Positions 7,754-33,175 of a stretch of 64,000 nucleotides of DNA are shown piece by piece. Source of the DNA: a virus (lineage: Duplodnaviria; Caudoviricetes); the IMG/VR virus record IMGVR_UViG_3300044652_000025, positions 32,001 through 96,000 of that record; one strand, given 5' to 3'. The first letter of the stretch is position 1. Every line of letters begins with the position of its first letter. The notes below the pieces were generated by a model. It was given only the letters and a program-made list of their open reading frames with translations, was not told the origin of the DNA and made no database searches. The position numbers were made by a program, and so were the translations under genes.

Positions 7754-8832
7754 CGGCCCAGCACGATCACGGTGTCCTTCTCGTCGGGATTGCCGCCACC
7801 CTTGACGAAGGCATCGATCCACTTCGGCTTGTGGCGGCCCTCGGAGGGATACCACTGGTTCCGGAGGTGACCCCGGACCCAGAAGCTGTGGCTGTAGCCG
7901 CGGCCCTCTCCGTCGCCTCTGGGGCGGTCCCAGGTGTCGTGGTCGTACTCCCGGCGGAGCATGACGACCTTGATGTCGTTGGCCGGGCCGTTGGCCCGCA
8001 TAGCCCGCTTGCGGACGACGCGGTCGAGCCCCATGGACGGGGTGATGACGATCTTCTGGTTGCAGAGGGTCCAGAAGGTGGCGACGATCCGCAGAAAGGA
8101 CTCCGAGCCCAGAAGGTGGGGGTCATCGGGGTCGGGGATCCGCTGATTGAGCATCCAGGTCTGGACGTGGAAGAGGGACAGCTTGTCGGGACTGGCCGAC
8201 TTGGCCTCCAGGACCGACGCGTCGTCCTCGCCCCAGCCCTCGTCGTTGGGGTCCCACTTGTCGGAGTAGACGAAGAACCGGACGGCCTTGGCCAGGGATG
8301 AGCCGTCCTCCCGGACGACGACCGGCGTCTGGATGACCGCGGCGTCCTCCTCTACGGCCCCCTCCCGCGGCTCGTAGTCCAGGGCGTAGGCCTGCTCGGC
8401 CTCAGCCTGGGAAATGGGCGCCGGTCGGGTGCCCTGCGCCGCCATGATCATCACCTCGGTCTCCCACGAGAACGCGGTGATGTTGCAGCGCTTGCCGTGC
8501 CGGTCGACGATGTAGATGGGGTGGGCCAGGAGGCAGAAGCCCCGGCGCGACGGGATGTCGCTGGCCCGGAGTTCGTAGCTCGGGAGCCGCTGACGTTGCT
8601 CGTCGATCATGTCGACCATGGTCGGGGTGACCCAGTAGGTGTCGGCCCGGTCGAGGTTGTAGGCCTCCCGGGCGGCGAACTGCTCCTTGGTACCCAGATC
8701 GAGCGACGGGCCGCCGTCGTCCTCACCCCTGAGCATGTCGACCCAGTAGGAGGCCAGCGCCGGGCCGTAGCGGCCCTTCCACAGGCGGATGAGATCCAGC
8801 TGGGCGTCGAGAGCCTTCATGTAGGAGCGCAT
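7750..8832 (-). CDS. conserved actinophage hypothetical protein, 360 aa
   Basis: C-terminal WVRGHLRNQWY...WIDAFVKG motif; TGATG start at 8832. Confidence 0.8.
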   Translation of the reverse strand: MRSYMKALDAQLDLIRLWKGRYGPALASYWVDMLRGEDDGGPSLDLGTKEQFAAREAYNLDRADTYWVTPTMVDMIDEQRQRLPSYELRASDIPSRRGFCLLAHPIYIVDRHGKRCNITAFSWETEVMIMAAQGTRPAPISQAEAEQAYALDYEPREGAVEEDAAVIQTPVVVREDGSSLAKAVRFFVYSDKWDPNDEGWGEDDASVLEAKSASPDKLSLFHVQTWMLNQRIPDPDDPHLLGSESFLRIVATFWTLCNQKIVITPSMGLDRVVRKRAMRANGPANDIKVVMLRREYDHDTWDRPRGDGEGRGYSHSFWVRGHLRNQWYPSEGRHKPKWIDAFVKGGGNPDEKDTVIVLGR

Positions 8833-25993: not shown

Positions 25994-26701
25994 TTATCGG
26001 GCAAAGATGAGGAGCACCTCCGCCTCGGCCCGGGACTCGTGGTTGGCACCGCGCCTCATCCTGGGGGTGACGATCTCGTGGCGGGCGATGAGCGTGAAGC
26101 CGATCGACTCGCAGATCGATCGATGGGTCTCGACGACGGGCTCTCTCCGGCGCTGACCGCGGTGGGTCCGGTAGCAGTCGCTGACGTTGAGGACGAACGT
26201 CCCCGACCGGGTGAGGGGATCGTAGGGCCGCAGTACCCGATAGACCTCCTGCCAGGCGGCGTCGTGGAAGCGCCAGTAGGCGGGCTGCCAGCAGTAGAGG
26301 GTGCCGCTGTTGGCGGGATCCAGGAGCCGGGTCTCGTCGCCGGTCATCCGCCGGAGGTCGTGGGTGTAGCTCCGGCGGTGGGAGCCGTCCTTGGCCATGT
26401 GGGAGTCGGACATCCTGTTGCCGAACACCGGGCTCACCATGACCGCGTCGATGCTCTCGTCCTCGAAGGGGAGGGCCAGGGCGTTGCCCACCCGGGTGTG
26501 GGGGTGACAGGCCGCCCACTCCGGCTCGATCTCGATACCGATGGTCTCCCGCCCGGCCTGGGCCAGGTCATGGACGCGTCCGATGCCCGCCATGGGGTCG
26601 AGGACGACGCCGGTGTCGGGGAGGATCTGGTGGTTCGCGATGAAGCGGAGGATGGCCTGGCTGTACGGCGCCGGGTGGATGGGCTTGGTGGCGGTCGTCA
26701 T
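25994..26701 (-). CDS. SAM-dependent DNA amino-methyltransferase-like protein
   Basis: VLDPMAGIG, GIEIE, GNALALPF, SPVF in place of SPPY. Confidence 0.75.
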   Translation of the reverse strand: MTTATKPIHPAPYSQAILRFIANHQILPDTGVVLDPMAGIGRVHDLAQAGRETIGIEIEPEWAACHPHTRVGNALALPFEDESIDAVMVSPVFGNRMSDSHMAKDGSHRRSYTHDLRRMTGDETRLLDPANSGTLYCWQPAYWRFHDAAWQEVYRVLRPYDPLTRSGTFVLNVSDCYRTHRGQRRREPVVETHRSICESIGFTLIARHEIVTPRMRRGANHESRAEAEVLLIFAR

Positions 26702-28719
26702 CGTCTCCTCCGGGCCGGTGACGTCGGCATCCCGGGCCTGCGCCTGCCCTTGCCGAAGCCCGAGAGGGCATCGTGGGTCTCGGTCTGCTGGCCACTGTGG
26801 GGCAGGCCACCCTGGGCGGTCCCTCCCACCGGTAGCTCGGCCAGGGTCTTGCCCAGGAAGGCCGCGATCTCGGTGCCGATGAGTTCGTAGGTGCAGATGG
26901 CCAGGCAGTCACTCACGTCTTTCGTTTGTACCGGTCCTGAGGTGGGGTGGTCAACCTTGTTTGTTCCCGCCTCCTGGAGGAAGGTCAACTCCAGGTCCGC
27001 CAGTTCGTGATACGGAGCATGGACGAGTCCCAATCCCAAGGCCGTTTTAAATGTTTCATACGTCTTCCAGTTCAAAGGACCAGTAGCGTCCCGCTCGTAG
27101 ATGGTAACCCGCTTCGGGTAGTTAGCGCTACGGGCGTGCTTACGGAGACGCTGGATCAAAGCCACAGAGTTCCACTGGTCGAAGGACAATTCGTTCGGCA
27201 TGAAGGCGTCCATGTCGACGATGATGTCGTCGGCGATGGCGTCGTAGTCGATCTCGTGGTTCTCGTAGTCACCCGGCAGCCAGGCGTGGATCTTGTCGAA
27301 GACGACGTGCGGGAGACCGCGGTCGTCGTGCCCGGCGACGTGGGCGATGGCCCAGCCGAAGTTGGCGCCGCTCTTGGACGGGTCGCCGTGGGCTCGGTAG
27401 GTCCGACTCAGGATCCCTTGGTGCTGCATCGTCAGGACGTCGCTCTCGGTCGGCCAGGGCTTCCACATGTCAGCGATCCGGTCCGGCCGGAGGTACGCGT
27501 CCAAGACGCTGGCCCAATGAGCGCGCCGCTCGACGGCGAACGTTTCAGGATTGGCAGCTTCTAACCGCTGCATCTCGGCGTCGAAGGTCTGGACCGCGTT
27601 GCGCAGGGCCGGGAAGAAGATCGGCCGCGACACCTGGGGGACGGCGTCGCGGATGTGGGCCGGGGGTGGGATCACCCGCTCCGGCCGGGCCTCCAGCCGG
27701 TGGTGAGGATCCGCGGTGCGCTCCCAGTCAACGTAGGTGTCCCAGCTTGCCAACTGGGCCATGAAGAGGGCCGGGAAGCTCGGCTTGCCGTCCTCATCGT
27801 GCTGGAGCGCCTTGCTGTAGTTGTCGAAGAACGCCCCCAGCCGCTGCCACGGCGACGACGCCTCCCACAGGAAGCCCCACTGCTGGAACTGGTCGAGGGA
27901 CGGGACGGCCGACTCGTAGACCTCGCTGGCGTCGGCCTTGGCCACGGCCCGGACGACGTGCGCCATCTCATCGAAGAACAACATCGCGCTGGCCGGGCCT
28001 CGGGCGGCCATCGTCGTTGCCTCTCTGGCCTCGATGATGAAGGTGGCCATGTCGGCCTCGGTCCCGATGCCTCGGTCGTGGCGGTCGAGCATCCTGATGA
28101 AGTCGTGCGGGGCGTAGACGGTGAAGCTCTCCCCCAGGACCCGGCTGATGTAGGGAGCGAAGCACGGCGCCCCGACGATGACGTTGTTCAAGTCCTTCCA
28201 CTGATGCGCTCGGGCCTGCTCCCGCTTACCGGCGAAGGCCATGGTGGCGATCTGCTTGTCGCGGTCGATTCCGAAGTGACCTTGCGGGTCTCCGAGCGAC
28301 AGGTAGTTCCACAAGACGTACGACCCGGCCAGGGCACCGAGGTAGCCCTTGCCGCCACGTCGACCGATGGGCAGGACCACCTCTCTGAACCACTTCCGGC
28401 CCTCGGCCTTGTTGATCTCGATCCGCTCGAAAATGTCAACAACGAGACCGTTGTTGCCCTCGCCCCGTTCGTCAGCCGACTCCCGGAACTTCGTCGTCCA
28501 TTCGTCAACGACCTCGTAGTCGTAGTCGGTCAGCAGGTCGTCACGAAGGAAAATCAACTTCAACAATGTGGCTTGCCTCGGGTACAGCGTCCGGCCCAAA
28601 TATGCGTCCGAGAGAATGAACTCAATCGGGTCCGGGACCTGAGCCTCAAATCCCGCGACGAGTTCAAAGACCCGCAGGGGGTCGAGGTCGGGCATGAATC
28701 GTCGGGTCCTGGCGGGCAT
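26698..28719 (-). CDS. terL: terminase large subunit
   Basis: YPRQ, GRRGGKG Walker A, LFFDE Walker B, HGDP / FDQWN / KDVSD RNaseH-type nuclease residues. Confidence 0.88.
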   Translation of the reverse strand: MPARTRRFMPDLDPLRVFELVAGFEAQVPDPIEFILSDAYLGRTLYPRQATLLKLIFLRDDLLTDYDYEVVDEWTTKFRESADERGEGNNGLVVDIFERIEINKAEGRKWFREVVLPIGRRGGKGYLGALAGSYVLWNYLSLGDPQGHFGIDRDKQIATMAFAGKREQARAHQWKDLNNVIVGAPCFAPYISRVLGESFTVYAPHDFIRMLDRHDRGIGTEADMATFIIEAREATTMAARGPASAMLFFDEMAHVVRAVAKADASEVYESAVPSLDQFQQWGFLWEASSPWQRLGAFFDNYSKALQHDEDGKPSFPALFMAQLASWDTYVDWERTADPHHRLEARPERVIPPPAHIRDAVPQVSRPIFFPALRNAVQTFDAEMQRLEAANPETFAVERRAHWASVLDAYLRPDRIADMWKPWPTESDVLTMQHQGILSRTYRAHGDPSKSGANFGWAIAHVAGHDDRGLPHVVFDKIHAWLPGDYENHEIDYDAIADDIIVDMDAFMPNELSFDQWNSVALIQRLRKHARSANYPKRVTIYERDATGPLNWKTYETFKTALGLGLVHAPYHELADLELTFLQEAGTNKVDHPTSGPVQTKDVSDCLAICTYELIGTEIAAFLGKTLAELPVGGTAQGGLPHSGQQTETHDALSGFGKGRRRPGMPTSPARRRR

Positions 28720-28778: not shown

Positions 28779-29333
28779 ACTGCCATGCCGAACTCGAACC
28801 TGACGAGCATCGCCGCGCCAAGCCCCGCCGACCCACGCCTTGACTGCCGAGTCGAGACCAGCCTACGCCCGCCTAACCGCGGCGAACCCAGCCCTGACTG
28901 CCGAGCCATTCCACGTCCAGACACGCCGTGCCATGACTGCCGCGGCACGACCCGCCTCTCCTAGCCTACGCGTGCCTCACCTCTCCGAGGCTGCCGGGCC
29001 AGGCCCAACCATCGCTGGTCAAGCCCAGCCAAGCCGCACCCTGACTGCCTCGCCCTAACGGGCCATGCCTGTCCATGCACCTCCTCAACGGGCCGTACCT
29101 TGCCACTGCTGCCAGGCCAACGCCTGCCGTGATGTACCAAGCCCTGCCGAGACGAGACCGTCCCCTCCACACCGCTACTGCCCTGACCTACCGGGCCTAG
29201 CCTCTACACGCCCGTCCTAGCCATTGCTGGCGAGCCGAGCCGAACCGCTCCATGACCTTGCGCACTTGCCCTGCCATACCAAGACTGCCGAGCCTTGCCG
29301 CGGCCTGCCTAGCCTCACCAAACCGAGGCTGCC
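28779..29333 (-). ncRNA. guide-RNA array 2: 10 units of GGCA+(GGY-like NN)n
   Basis: Delimiter spacings (+ strand order) 64,54,39,54,54,64,69,49,58,44; 5-nt periodicity; no credible ORF. Confidence 0.85.
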
Positions 29334-29337
29334 ATTC

Positions 29338-29364
29338 ACCGGGGCCGGTGGCTCCGACCCCGGT
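29338..29364 (-). other. RNA hairpin between accessory gene and array 2
   Basis: 11-bp stem whose one mismatch is a G-U pair only on the minus-strand transcript. Confidence 0.7.
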
Positions 29365-29370
29365 CGCTGG

Positions 29371-29871
29371 CTAGACCGCCTCGGCCTCTCCGTCGTCGTC
29401 GTCGCGGTCGATGTCATCGAGCGCGGCCCAGACTCCGGCCAGAGCACTGAGGTGCCGGTACCGGCGCCGCAGAGCCTGGAGGGCGACCAACGCATCTTTG
29501 AGCATCTGATTTCTCAGATCCTCGCGGTCGACCACCGTCTGAGTGTTGGTGTAGCCACGGTCACCGTCCTTCCGGACCGAGACGAAGGCGACGATGGGTT
29601 CGTCACTGCCCTCGACCACGATGCGGATGTCTCTGATGATCCGGCGAGCCTGACTCAGCCAATACTGCTCGGCGGCGTGGTTTTTGTCCCACCCACGCCA
29701 GTCGGCCATGTTGTGCAACGGCGAGTTGCGCTTCTTGGCCTCGGCTACCAACGCGTGCGGGGTGCAGACACCGTCGCGGTCCTCGATCTTCTTGATCTCG
29801 CCGTAGACGATGTTGGCGTCGACACCATGGCTCTGCTTCCACGACACGAACGCTGTCGGTTCTCCACTCAT
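29371..29871 (-). CDS. accessory protein of the RAMP-array system, 166 aa
   Basis: AAAGGAGG RBS; TP..LV..A...SPLH...W....AAEQY.L.QARRII motif; sits between the two arrays. Confidence 0.85.
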   Translation of the reverse strand: MSGEPTAFVSWKQSHGVDANIVYGEIKKIEDRDGVCTPHALVAEAKKRNSPLHNMADWRGWDKNHAAEQYWLSQARRIIRDIRIVVEGSDEPIVAFVSVRKDGDRGYTNTQTVVDREDLRNQMLKDALVALQALRRRYRHLSALAGVWAALDDIDRDDDDGEAEAV

Positions 29872-29893
29872 TTTTCAATCACCTCCTTTCGAT

Positions 29894-30929
29894 CCTGCCG
29901 TGACAAGCCAAACCGATCCGGGCCAAGCCCAAACGGGCCTAACCGCGCCAAGCCACGACTGCCGTTACCAACCCGGACCTGCCTGGCCGAACCTGACCGG
30001 GACGAGCCTTGCCTGGACTGGCGAGGCTTGCCGGGCCGTAACACGACTAGACCGGCCTATCCCTGCCCTGACTGCCATGCCTAAACCTGCCCTGGCTTGC
30101 CATGACGACCTAGCCCTACCACTGCTGCCGTGACCAGCCTGGCCGGTCCACGACGCTCCTAGCCGAGCCGTACCTTGCCTCGTCTGCCACGCCCTGCGAA
30201 GCCATCGCTTGCCCATCCTGACCATGGCTGCCGAGCCGGGACCGTCCCAAGCCGGGCACACCTAGCCACTCCATGACTGCCAAACCGGGACCTGCCTGGC
30301 CTGGACACACCTGGCCGAGCCGACCCGCACCTTGCCACTGCTGCCATGACGAACCGCTCCATGCCGTTGCGTGCCGCGACCTGCCAAGCCTTGGCGAGGC
30401 TGCCGAGACCTGACTGGCGACGCCAAGCCGGGCCTGGACATCCCGCGCAACGCCCTGACTCGACTGCCCTGCCAAACCCATCCGGGCCGTGACATGCCAC
30501 CCGAGCCGTGCCTGGGCTGCCGTGCCGCACCTGACCTCGACGGGACCAGACCATCCTGGCCCAGCCAAGCGCAGACCCGCCTCGACTGCCCTACCTCGCC
30601 AAGCCCTGCCTCGGCCCGACCCGGAGATCCAGGCCGAGGCTGGCTGGCCACACCGTGCCTCGACGCTGCGAGACATGCACCGCCTAGCCCATCCTCTACT
30701 GCCATGACCGGCCATGCGTTGCCACGGCGAGCCTTGGCCGGACCGGACCTGACGATCCAAGCCCAACCATGGCTGCCGCTCCACTGCTGCCCTGACAAGC
30801 CTTGGCTCGACGTGCCCCTGCGGGAGTCGCCGGGCCAAGCCACTGCTGCCATGCCGTGACCCGCCATGACATACCGGGGCGCACACCGCCCATACATGAC
30901 CGGGCGAGCCGAGCCATGCCGTGTCTGCC
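29894..30929 (-). ncRNA. guide-RNA array 1: 18 units of GGCA+(GGY-like NN)n
   Basis: Delimiter spacings (+ strand order) 64,59,54,53,59,44,49,64,59,64,53,69,54,59,74,14,59,79. Confidence 0.88.
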
Positions 30930-30954: not shown

Positions 30955-31593
30955 CTAGTTGCTGACCTGGAACATTCCGTACGAACCGGACGCCGACTTC
31001 GGCGCCGACGGCCGCCACTCACCAACCCCACCGAGACCGGCGGCGTCGACCAGAGCGAAGACCGACGAGGCGTCGAGCATGTGCGGCAGGTACGTGACCT
31101 TGAGGATGGCCGACCACGGCCAGAAGCCAGCCCGGTAGCGGATGTCAGCGACACCCGACTCCAACCTGACCATGTCCTCACGCATGTGAGGCTCGGCCGA
31201 AATCGCCACCAGGTCGGTCCCCTCCTCGGGGTTGATGAAGAGGGCGGCCTTGGCCTGGACCATGGTCAAGCCGTCGAAGTGCCTCACGGCGCCGACGAGA
31301 GCGGCCTTGAAGGCGGTGGCGGGGATGGCGCAGCGGCCGTCGGGGAGCCGGTAGATGGACGACTCGTAGTCGGCCTGCGGGTCCTTCGGCTCCTTCTTCG
31401 GCTTGGTGCCGCGAGCCATCTGGCTCTCCAACATCATTCTCTTGGCCTTCTCGGACCAGCGGTGGGTGATCAACTCGGAGGTGCCCTCGATCGGGACCTC
31501 GATGGTGACGCGCTCCAGGCGCTTCAGGACGACGGTGGGACCCTCGGTGACGCCAGCGACCTTCCCGGCGCCATTGGTTTTGGTCATTGCCAT
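30955..31593 (-). CDS. Cas7/RAMP-like RNA-binding protein (Vipr-like), 212 aa
   Basis: IEGTSELITH first strand, IPATAFKAAL helix, C-terminal Gly loop GLGGVGEWRP...GSYGMF; ATG 31593 with CAGGAG RBS. Confidence 0.8.
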   Translation of the reverse strand: MAMTKTNGAGKVAGVTEGPTVVLKRLERVTIEVPIEGTSELITHRWSEKAKRMMLESQMARGTKPKKEPKDPQADYESSIYRLPDGRCAIPATAFKAALVGAVRHFDGLTMVQAKAALFINPEEGTDLVAISAEPHMREDMVRLESGVADIRYRAGFWPWSAILKVTYLPHMLDASSVFALVDAAGLGGVGEWRPSAPKSASGSYGMFQVSN

Positions 31594-32194: not shown

Positions 32195-33175
32195 TTACTT
32201 CTTCTTGCGGCTCTTCGGGATCGGGAGCTTCTTGACGTCGCTCCCGGCGATGATCCCGGCGTTGTAGTGCTTGGCCAGGGCGTCGGCGATGGCCCGCGGC
32301 TTGCTGGTGTAGTGCTCCTTCGAGTTGCGGATCGGGTCGGCCAGCGCCGATGGCGGCCACTGCCGGAGCGTCACGATGAGGTGACCCTCGTCGAACAGCG
32401 GGGTCTTGACCAGGCCGCCCTGCTCGTCGACCGACAGCTTGGTGTAGCGCCGGACGAACTCCCCGACGGACTGGAGCGTGAGGTACGCCCAGGCGTCCGG
32501 ATACTGCTGCTGGACCCAGGACTTGTTGATGACCCGGAAGACCGTGGCCAGCCCGTCCTCGCCGATGGTGGCGTACATCTTGCGGAGCGCCTTGACGGCG
32601 GTGATGCCACCGAGACCCACGGTCAGGCCGTTGTCGGAGGCGATCCGGTCGACGGCCACCGCCTCGGGGTCACCGGCCTTGAGGTCGGTCTTGTAGAGGT
32701 CCGTCGGCGAGAAGCTCGTCCGGCCCCGGTGGATGGTGCCGGTCTGGTTGGCCTCGGCACCGACGCTCATACCCTTGTGGACCCAGCAGGGCACCTGCAT
32801 GTCCGGGTTGATGATCTGGGCCACGATGGTCCGGTGCTGGCCCTCGGGCGACCAGAGGCTGGCGTCGGGACGCTCGTTGACGTCGATGGGCTCGAAGGCG
32901 TAGGGGTCGAAGTTCCTGATCAGATCCTTGGCCTTCTTCAGGTTGATTCGCCGCTGGTAGCTCTTGTCGACGTTGATGTCCCCGGCCCGGACGTAGCGGA
33001 GTTCGCCGGTGAGCTTCATCTCCGCCAGTTCCTGGCGGCGCTCCTCGGGGATCTCCTTCTCGTACCAGTCGCGCAGGGCCTTGAGCTTGTCCTCCTCGGA
33101 CAGTTCGGTCCGGGGGCGCCTCGGGGTGGGAGTCTCCTCCTCGTCCGCGAGGTCGAGGTCGTCGTCTTCACTCAT
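32195..33175 (-). CDS. ParB/Srx-like N-terminal domain protein
   Basis: VDKSYQR..., IDVNER, EGQHR motif. Confidence 0.8.
   Translation of the reverse strand: MSEDDDLDLADEEETPTPRRPRTELSEEDKLKALRDWYEKEIPEERRQELAEMKLTGELRYVRAGDINVDKSYQRRINLKKAKDLIRNFDPYAFEPIDVNERPDASLWSPEGQHRTIVAQIINPDMQVPCWVHKGMSVGAEANQTGTIHRGRTSFSPTDLYKTDLKAGDPEAVAVDRIASDNGLTVGLGGITAVKALRKMYATIGEDGLATVFRVINKSWVQQQYPDAWAYLTLQSVGEFVRRYTKLSVDEQGGLVKTPLFDEGHLIVTLRQWPPSALADPIRNSKEHYTSKPRAIADALAKHYNAGIIAGSDVKKLPIPKSRKKK

What the first reader, a model, noticed from the sequence alone, without database searches (positions are those of the whole stretch)
29900..29963. Guide unit next to the accessory gene decodes to a homolog of that gene
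Seen: NN = GT AA AA GA GG AA CA GG TA GC AA AC, giving V-K-K-D-G-K-Q-G-Y-A-N-T, versus the accessory protein's VRKDGDRGYTNT at 29542-29577 (8/12 dinucleotides, 19/24 nt, in codon phase). It is statistically weaker alone but concordant with the other two self-like matches. Inference: it targets the accessory gene of a rival system.
Basis: partly seen in the sequence, partly recalled or inferred. Interest (0 to 1): 0.8.

Follow-up and report, generated by a model that had tools for sequence, protein, structure and literature searches.

The report
VIPR guide RNA resembling its own accessory gene
The 64-base unit is one guide RNA of a phage VIPR system (a CRISPR-related, RNA-guided DNA silencer first described in 2026). 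It really does spell, two letters per codon, a near-copy of a site in the neighbouring accessory gene, most likely to hit sibling phages' versions of that gene, although no such version has been found.

Summary
Unit 29900-29963 is 12 pentamers (NN plus a GCC-like triplet) and a TGCC delimiter. Its NN string matches codon positions 1-2 of codons 99-110 of the adjacent 166-aa gene (29543-29577, minus strand) at 19/24. This is the unit's best hit in the whole 151-kb genome. Chance of such an in-frame hit in that gene is 2.5e-6 to 4.5e-5.

The system is already published. It is a VIPR locus: Vipr (a Cas7-like RAMP), vap (the accessory gene) and vrRNAs made of GGY/NN repeats that read DNA while skipping every third base (bioRxiv 10.64898/2026.04.26.720920, .720927, 2026.10.15.759431). 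This scan has met VIPR on other DNA before.

The interpretation, a guide against a rival's vap, is plausible but unproven:
- Self is the best match among about 45 vap homologs; the next best is 16/24.
- Exact-pattern scans of IMG/VR and JGI metagenomes found nothing.
- Indirect support comes from two sister guides that match relatives' alleles better than their carrier's own: 27/30 against 24/30, and 19/24 against 16/24.
- The phage's own terL site uses a TTA codon (0.4% of Leu codons) exactly where its guide reads CT.

One pattern may be new. Near-self guides sit at array ends, next to the gene they resemble, both here and in a second phage (L019).

The parts
29900..29963 (-). The vrRNA unit in question. 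It is the last (RNA 3'-most) guide of array 1. RNA sense is GGCA followed by 12 G-N-Y-NN pentamers.
   Evidence: Parsed. The NN string matches vap codons 99-110 at 19/24.
29872..29899 (-). Closing GGCAG delimiter of array 1, followed by the vap ribosome-binding site (AAAGGAGGTG) and spacer up to the ATG at 29871.
   Evidence: Read directly from the sequence.
29371..29871 (-). vap, the VIPR accessory gene (166 aa, phrog_15946). The predicted fold is winged-helix-like.
   Evidence: PHROG hit 3.7e-23. A homolog lies in 51 related loci (some duplicate records), mostly just downstream of vipr. AF2 pLDDT 91. Winged-helix DNA-binding domains are the top fold matches, but only at Z about 5.
29543..29577 (-). 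Near-self target site in vap: codons 99-110, VRKDGDRGYTNT. It lies in the predicted beta-hairpin (the 'wing').
29900..30929 (-). vrRNA array 1: 20 units of 5n+4 nt, in the staggered format.
30955..31593 (-). vipr, a stand-alone Cas7-like RAMP (212 aa, phrog_4652).
   Evidence: More than 5400 homologs and no Pfam family. AF2 pLDDT 85. Foldseek top hits are Csm3/Cas7 of type III and VII, probability 1.0, E about 1e-5.
28785..29333 (-). vrRNA array 2: 11 units.
30851..30929 (-). First unit of array 1, a near-self guide to vipr (31169-31212). It scores 24/30 on self and 27/30 on the 89%-identical relative L073.
28785..28848 (-). Last unit of array 2, a near-self guide to the terminase-like gene (27539-27573) at 21/24.
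26698..28719 (-). 673-aa terminase-large-subunit-like gene directly downstream of array 2.
   Evidence: Weak phrog_9 hit, E 2e-4. It holds the sites matched by the G000 and L074 terminal units.

Best explanation
The unit is one vrRNA of a phage-encoded VIPR system.

How the system works, from the 2026 preprints and not tested here: Vipr protomers polymerise along the vrRNA, bury each constant G-G-Y triplet and display the NN dinucleotides. These pair with double-stranded DNA while every third target base is skipped. The complex forms an R-loop triplex and silences transcription.

This particular guide sits at the very end of array 1, abutting the vap ribosome-binding site. It reads a near-copy (19/24) of codons 99-110 of vap.

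Most likely reading, which is inference: it is aimed at the vap alleles of closely related, competing VIPR-carrying phages. The phage's own allele is spared by five NN mismatches, which put it at 79%, just under the 80% level the preprints use to call a target. The guide stays next to its 'immune' allele because a recombinant that inherited one without the other would silence itself.
For: Shown here:
- The match is real, in codon phase, and is the genome-wide best hit.
- The locus meets the VIPR definition. Vipr has a Cas7-like fold. The arrays are GGY/NN-type pentamers on the gene strand. vap is a conserved neighbour. The same array grammar appears in 54 of 67 related viral loci and in Mycobacterium and Gordonia phages. 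Only a 1-nt skip gives outlier hits.

Support for a non-self aim:
- The vipr-directed guide decodes to IVPIIGAPHMREDMV. That is closer to the family consensus LVPIxGEPxMREDMV and to the 89%-identical relative (27/30) than to self (24/30).
- Strain L074 carries a different terminal unit that matches G000's terL allele at 19/24 but its own at only 16/24.
- The own terL site uses TTA, 9 of 2273 Leu codons, exactly where the guide reads CT.
- The residues this guide decodes to at its mismatches (K, K/N, Q/H, A) all occur at those columns in vap homologs.

From the literature: vrRNAs targeting other VIPR systems, and self scores lower than non-self scores, are published.
Against: - For this unit, self is the best match known. 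Of about 45 vap homologs the next best is 16/24.
- The sister strain L074 has the same NN at the site.
- The site is poorly conserved across the vap family, so any target must be a very close relative, and none has been sampled.
- None of four near-self guides tested has an exact match in IMG/VR: three from G000 and one from L019.
- Mismatch tolerance of this VIPR type is unknown, so a 79% self match might still bind.
- Across 322 guides of related loci there is no general excess of hits on vipr or vap genes.
Confidence: 0.5

Rival explanations
1. Autoregulation. The guide is deliberately only partly complementary to the phage's own vap, and the sister guides likewise to vipr and terL. The VIPR complex would bind weakly and tune or time expression of the flanking genes, as crRNA-like regulators with partial matches do in some CRISPR systems.
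For: - Self is the best match known for this unit.
- Near-self guides sit directly beside the genes they resemble. This holds in three of four array ends here and again in L019, where 3 of 4 guides match the adjacent capsid gene at 75-85%.
- No perfect non-self target was found for any of them.
- VIPR acts by repression, not cleavage.
Against: - In both cases where a relative's allele can be compared, non-self matches better than self. That is the opposite of what co-evolving regulator-target pairs should show.
- The own terL allele carries a very rare codon that lowers the match.
- Most related loci show no self-locus matches: 8 of 322 guides reach p<=0.01 against about 3 expected, and 6 of the 8 come from G000 and L019.
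Confidence: 0.22
2. Relic. The guide once matched an ancestral vap allele, its own or a rival's, and is now drifting without function.
For: - There are five mismatches spread along the guide.
- No current perfect target was found.
- NN positions do change between sister strains: 3 of the 4 array differences that could be classified (5 in all) fall on NN.
Against: - The unit keeps perfect pentamer grammar and delimiters.
- The mismatches decode to residues actually used by vap homologs, with no stop-type dinucleotide introduced.
- Array 1 is identical between G000 and L074, with 0 differences in about 1 kb, while vap has 12.
Confidence: 0.2
3. Chance resemblance with no biological meaning.
For: 19/24 alone has a genome-wide expectation of 0.0275 per unit. 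That is about 0.7 such hits somewhere in the genome across 26 units.
Against: - The hit lies in frame in the adjacent 166-codon gene, with P 2.5e-6 to 4.5e-5.
- The three strong hits are all array-end units hitting their flanking genes in frame. Four of 26 tested units are terminal, so all three being terminal has P about 0.0015.
- The pattern repeats in L074 and L019.
Confidence: 0.02

Closest known systems
VIPR systems (Vipr + vap + vrRNA). The type II exemplars are Escherichia phage SUSP1 and a Pseudomonas fulva prophage. Sources: bioRxiv 10.64898/2026.04.26.720920 (PMC13142463) and 10.64898/2026.04.26.720927.
   Same: - A small stand-alone Cas7-like RAMP with one accessory gene.
- Guides built from 9-16 constant-triplet/NN pentamers on the gene strand.
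- Target read with one skipped base that falls on the codon wobble position.
- Phage-encoded.
   Different: - An actinophage-type lineage. tblastn of Vipr finds only Mycobacterium, Gordonia and one cyanophage, not SUSP1.
- No 3' tail or pseudoknot between guides. Units of 5n+4 nt are joined by GGCA|G, which fits the 'staggered, 1-nt overlapping' arrays that the paper mentions only in a supplementary figure legend.
- 31 guides in two arrays that flank vap.
- The VIPR type (I-VII) could not be assigned from the text held.
vrRNAs that target relatives' VIPR systems: solo and VIPR+ SUSP1-family phages (bioRxiv 10.64898/2026.10.15.759431, section 8) and P. fulva clade guides (first paper).
   Same: - Guides directed at vipr-locus sequences of competitors.
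- Self score lower than non-self score, read as avoidance of autoimmunity.
- The vipr-directed guide in this window behaves this way (27/30 non-self against 24/30 self).
   Different: - The published cases hit vipr codons or vrRNA/tail junctions. Here the site lies inside vap itself.
- For this unit no better non-self allele is known.
- The papers report no self hits at 80% or more in their sets. This phage has self hits at 79%, 80% and 87.5%.
Class 1 CRISPR Cas7 filaments (Csm3/Cmr4/Cas7).
   Same: The fold of the protein, and periodic protein-imposed interruption of guide-target pairing.
   Different: - No CRISPR repeat-spacer array.
- 5-nt guide period with only 2 informative bases, against a 3-nt target period, instead of 6/6.
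Poison-antidote / free-standing homing-endonuclease logic in phages (e.g. T4 seg/mob genes). This is recalled knowledge and an analogy only.
   Same: An agent that attacks relatives' alleles lies next to a resistant own allele, so the two are co-inherited.
   Different: VIPR is reported to silence, not cut. No gene conversion has been shown here.

Membership tests
VIPR system | Vipr: a small single-domain RAMP related to Cas7, with a G-rich loop | tested here: met
   The protein is 212 aa. AF2 gives pLDDT 85. Foldseek PDB top hits are Csm3/Cas7 of type III and VII, probability 1.0, E 1e-5 to 1e-4, TM 0.35-0.49. A GxGGVGEWRPS glycine-rich motif is conserved.
VIPR system | vrRNAs made of tandem pentamers: a constant GGY-type triplet plus hypervariable NN, about 9-16 per guide, beside vipr | tested here: met
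   There are 291 pentamers in 31 units. Positions 3-5 are G/C/C-dominated, with position 5 being C in 275 of 291. NN is near-uniform. A period-5 signal is found only at this locus in the genome. The same grammar occurs in 54 of 67 related loci, nearly always on the gene strand.
VIPR system | Target read by the 1-nt skip rule, with the skipped base on the codon wobble position | tested here: met
   Outlier matches appear only at target period 3. All significant hits are in frame with NN on codon positions 1-2. In L019 the skips fall on the wobble positions of the capsid gene on both strands.
VIPR system | Adjacent accessory gene (vap), predicted to interact with DNA | tested here: inconclusive
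   The conserved neighbour is shown. The fold resembles winged-helix DNA-binding domains, but only at Z about 5. No Pfam family was found.
VIPR system | Vipr-vrRNA ribonucleoprotein binds dsDNA and represses transcription | not testable with these tools
   Known only for SUSP1 and P. fulva systems. No RNA run is listed for this DNA.
VIPR type II (SUSP1-like) | Each vrRNA ends in a conserved structured 3' tail (pseudoknot) | tested here: not met
   Units follow each other directly and are separated only by the 4-nt TGCC (RNA GGCA) phase shift. This fits the 'staggered' array class instead.
CRISPR-Cas (type III-like) | Array of identical direct repeats separating unique spacers | tested here: not met
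   Tandem Repeats Finder and parsing show no 24-40 nt direct repeats, only pentamer periodicity.

The most novel reading that the evidence does not exclude
Near-self vrRNAs and the mismatched ('immune') alleles of their target genes form tightly linked poison-antidote modules. Guides against sibling phages' vipr, vap, terminase or capsid alleles are kept at array ends, directly beside the carrier's own resistant allele. Array ends are where units turn over and where recombination between strains breaks. VIPR would then drive allele-specific exclusion among close relatives, not only defence against unrelated elements.

For this unit, that would mean an as yet unsampled vap allele (about VKKDGKQGYANT) circulates in the same soils.
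Probability: 0.3. Interest if true: 0.7.

Novelty: new member of a known kind. Interest (0 to 1): 0.45.

Why it matters
VIPR was described only in 2026, from E. coli and Pseudomonas phages.

This locus shows the same code at work in a 151-kb soil actinophage-like genome. Through its relatives it also shows the code in well-studied Mycobacterium and Gordonia phages, where the arrays are currently annotated as hypothetical proteins.

The specific point is that guides nearly match their carrier's own flanking genes at 79-87.5%. They sit next to those genes and fit relatives' alleles better. The preprints' main text and methods, as read here, do not report this. It bears on how VIPR avoids autoimmunity, how much mismatch it tolerates, and whether it mediates competition between sibling phages.

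The cluster F mycobacteriophages offer a tractable bench system to test this.

Tried and rejected
- **Exact pattern, this guide.** The gapped pattern gave 0 hits in IMG/VR and 0 in JGI metagenome contigs.
- **Relaxed pattern.** A pattern keeping only the 19 bases shared by guide and self gave 0 hits in IMG/VR. It gave 2 hits in 596 Gb of genomes, where about 4 are expected by chance. Neither lies next to a vipr gene, and the better one scores 19/24, no better than self.
- **Protein search.** The search for related loci with Vap on metagenome contigs found no relative. The word-based protein search found only the protein itself.
- **Exact patterns, other near-self guides.** The terL guide, the vipr guide and the L019 capsid guide each gave 0 hits in IMG/VR.
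- **Sequencing runs.** No RNA holder is listed. Contigs of four soil runs were laid on the locus. Cover of the vap site was thin (one run, depth about 2.6) and no variant was listed there, so this says nothing about rival alleles.
- **Early ideas dropped.** These were a TRAP-like RNA-binding array, G-quadruplex/i-motif DNA, a type III toxin-antitoxin RNA, quintuplet decoding, and the third pentamer base acting as a wobble base. On the last one, position 3 is G regardless of the target codon (and reading).
- **Donkeykong.** Its guides show no significant self hits.
- **Related loci.** Across 322 guides there is no general excess of hits on a 1.9-Mb set of related loci or on vipr/vap genes.

Full report
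**1. What is at the coordinates**

Two intergenic tracts, 28785-29333 and 29900-30929, carry a strong 5-nt periodicity. It is found nowhere else in the 151,490-bp genome.

On the + strand they parse into 31 units. Each unit is n pentamers of the form NN-[G/A/T]-[C/A]-C followed by a 4-nt TGCC (rarely TGGC or GACC), so each unit is 5n+4 nt long. Across the 291 pentamers, position 5 is C in 275 and position 3 is G in 200. The two NN positions are close to uniform, with a composition like codon positions 1 and 2.

All flanking genes lie on the minus strand. In RNA sense the arrays therefore read GGCA followed by (G-G/U-Y-N-N)n. Gene order in RNA sense is:
- a 212-aa gene (30955-31593)
- array 1
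- a 166-aa gene (29371-29871)
- array 2
- a 673-aa terminase-like gene (26698-28719)

The unit in question, 29900-29963, is the last unit of array 1. After it come only a closing GGCAG and the ribosome-binding site of the 166-aa gene.

**2.

The NN string is GT AA AA GA GG AA CA GG TA GC AA AC. It matches codon positions 1-2 of codons 99-110 (VRKDGDRGYTNT) of the 166-aa gene at 19 of 24 bases and 8 of 12 dinucleotides.

I scanned every unit against the whole genome on both strands with a target period of 3.
- For this unit the vap site is the best hit in the genome. Only 2 of 100 order-shuffles reach 19 anywhere.
- A random unit expects 0.0275 sites at 19 or more genome-wide.
- The chance of such a hit in frame in this one gene is 2.5e-6 with random NN draws and 4.5e-5 with shuffles of the unit itself.

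- 28785-28848 on the terminase-like gene at 21/24.
- 30851-30929 on the 212-aa gene at 24/30.

All three are in frame, and all three are array-end units hitting the gene they abut. Four of the 26 tested units are terminal, so all three hits being terminal has a probability of about 0.0015. Target periods of 2, 4, 5, 6 or 7 give no outliers.

**3. What the system is**

*The 212-aa protein.* It has no Pfam family but more than 5400 homologs and belongs to phrog_4652. Its AlphaFold model (pLDDT 85) matches Csm3/Cas7 subunits of type III and type VII CRISPR complexes, with Foldseek probability 1.0 and E about 1e-5.

*The 166-aa protein.* It belongs to phrog_15946. A homolog lies in 51 related loci (some are duplicate records), mostly just downstream of the Cas7-like gene. 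Its model (pLDDT 91) resembles winged-helix DNA-binding domains, but only weakly, at Z about 5.

*The arrays elsewhere.* Arrays with the same grammar lie next to the gene in 54 of 67 IMG/VR loci, nearly always on its strand. They also occur in Mycobacterium phage Donkeykong and in Gordonia phages UmaThurman and ODay. In Donkeykong and UmaThurman the array is annotated as a hypothetical protein gene.

*The literature.* A search identified the system as VIPR.
- Vipr is a minimal RAMP, vap is an accessory gene, and vrRNAs are 9-16 GGY/NN repeats.
- The NN bases pair with double-stranded DNA while one base is skipped, and the skip falls on the codon wobble position.
- The complex silences transcription. 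[quoted passage not shown]
- Cryo-EM work shows that Vipr protomers bury each GGY, display NN and form an R-loop triplex.
- A follow-up paper reports guides against relatives' vipr genes and vrRNAs, with self scores lower than non-self scores.

*Format.* The 5n+4 unit joined by GGCA|G fits the 'staggered arrays with 1-nt overlapping vrRNAs' named in a supplementary legend. It does not fit the tailed type II format.

So the general 'gapped, wobble-skipping code' is already known, and this scan has met VIPR loci on other DNA several times.

**4. Is this guide aimed at a rival's vap?**

Direct tests gave no rival target.
- I aligned about 45 vap homologs from related loci and scored the guide at the homologous codons. 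Self scores 19/24, the next best 16/24, and most 8-14. The site is poorly conserved in the family.
- The sister strain L074 is 99.4% identical across vipr, array 1, vap and most of array 2. Its only change in the site is at a wobble base, so it scores the same.
- Exact-pattern scans of IMG/VR and JGI metagenome contigs found nothing.
- A relaxed pattern found only chance-level hits.
- Laying contigs of four soil runs on the locus gave almost no cover of the site.

A better-matching allele has therefore not been seen.

**5. Indirect evidence favours a non-self aim**

a) The vipr-directed guide decodes to IVPIIGAPHMREDMV. The family consensus is LVPIxGEPxMREDMV, and self reads LVAISAEPHMREDMV. 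The 89%-identical relative L073 reads LVPIVGTPHMREDMV and scores 27/30, against 24/30 for self. That relative carries a different first unit.

b) L074 lacks G000's last two units of array 2. In their place it has a unit whose NN string hits G000's terminase allele (codon 170, RAHQWKDLNNVI) at 19/24, in frame, but its own allele (KQHQWRDLNNVV) at only 16/24. Identity between the two strains drops from 99.4% to 86% exactly at this array end.

c) At the terminase site, the own allele has TTA where the guide reads CT. TTA makes up 9 of 2273 Leu codons in this genome.

d) The four mismatched dinucleotides of the vap guide decode to K, K/N, Q/H and A. All of these occur at the same columns in vap homologs.

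e) A second, unrelated locus repeats the pattern. In L019, three of four guides match the adjacent major capsid gene (PF05065) at 75-85%. The skips fall on that gene's wobble positions, and the hits lie on both strands.

**6. Reading**

The guide is real and is not a chance match.

The most likely function is silencing of vap in closely related competing phages, with the own allele spared by five NN mismatches. That puts the self match at 79%, just under the 80% level the preprints use to call targets.

Keeping guide and spared allele adjacent makes sense. A recombinant carrying one without the other would silence itself. This step is inference.

Three readings remain open:
- Autoregulation by deliberate partial self-match is a serious rival. 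Self is the best match known, the guides sit beside their genes, and VIPR represses rather than cuts.
- A drifting relic cannot be excluded.
- Chance can be excluded.

Two caveats apply.
- Mismatch tolerance for this VIPR type is not known. An earlier checked note of this scan warns that hosts can live with 80% matches.
- Across 322 guides of related loci there is no general excess of hits on vipr or vap genes. Anti-VIPR guides are therefore not a general habit of this clade.

**7. Novelty**

The system and its code are known, so this is a new member of a known kind. What I did not find in the main text and methods of the preprints that I read is the combination seen here:
- guides that nearly match the carrier's own flanking genes at 79-87.5%
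- their position at array ends next to those genes
- unit turnover and a recombination break at an array end between sister strains

Their analyses report no self hits at 80% or more. Their supplementary tables could not be read.

Noticed in passing
L001:3480-3866 (Mycobacterium phage Donkeykong gene 48); L002:4598-4921 (Gordonia phage UmaThurman gene 40); L003:4583-4795 (Gordonia phage ODay, unannotated gap): In Donkeykong and UmaThurman, 'hypothetical protein' genes in isolated actinophages are in fact vrRNA arrays next to a vipr-vap pair. In ODay the array lies in an unannotated gap. In Donkeykong the cassette sits in the early/immunity region. In ODay it lies between the tail chaperones and the tape measure gene.
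   Followed up: partly
L019:7308-7401 and 8676-8789 (arrays); L019:8827-9756 minus strand (capsid gene): Three of the four guides of this 57.7-kb viral contig match its own adjacent major capsid gene (PF05065, E 7e-39) at 19/24, 17/20 and 18/24. The hits lie on both strands, and the skipped bases fall on the capsid gene's wobble positions.
   Followed up: partly
window 28785-28902 versus L074:2756-2819: Sister strain L074 is 99.4% identical through vipr, array 1, vap and most of array 2. It then swaps the last two units for one different unit and drops to 86% identity in the terminase-like gene. This marks unit turnover and a recombination break at the array end.
   Followed up: partly
window 29488-29502 (vap codons 124-128, LKDAL): Six of the 12 differences between G000 and L074 in vap cluster within 15 nt, and all six are synonymous. 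They include reciprocal Leu swaps (CTC/TTG at codon 124, TTG/CTC at codon 128). Such swaps change the NN reading without changing the protein and could be a signature of escape from some VIPR guide.
   Followed up: partly
window 27538-27573 (terminase-like gene, MQRLEAANPETF): The site matched by the terminal guide of array 2 has only 6 of 12 G/C-ending codons, against 86% genome-wide. It contains TTA, which is 0.4% of Leu codons.
   Followed up: partly
window 30591-30644: An internal unit matches terminase-like codons 418-427 (MWKPWPTESD) at 15/20 in frame. p is 0.003 within the flanking genes, but the hit is not significant genome-wide.
   Followed up: partly
L009:7383-7940, L022:1426-1907, L042:9319-9646: The constant triplet and the delimiter differ between related loci. 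Antisense forms are NNGAC, NNGGC with a TGGC delimiter, and NNTCC. Only the last C (the RNA's first G) and the 5n+4 format are constant.
   Followed up: partly
window 30242-30330, 30476-30604, 29314-30459: Contigs from other soil metagenome runs join across these intervals. This suggests that strains differ by whole-unit deletions or replacements within the arrays.
   Followed up: no
window 32195-33175 (minus strand): A 326-aa ParB-like / DUF6551 gene lies just upstream of the VIPR operon. A DNA methylase gene (25994-26701) lies just downstream of the terminase-like gene.
   Followed up: no
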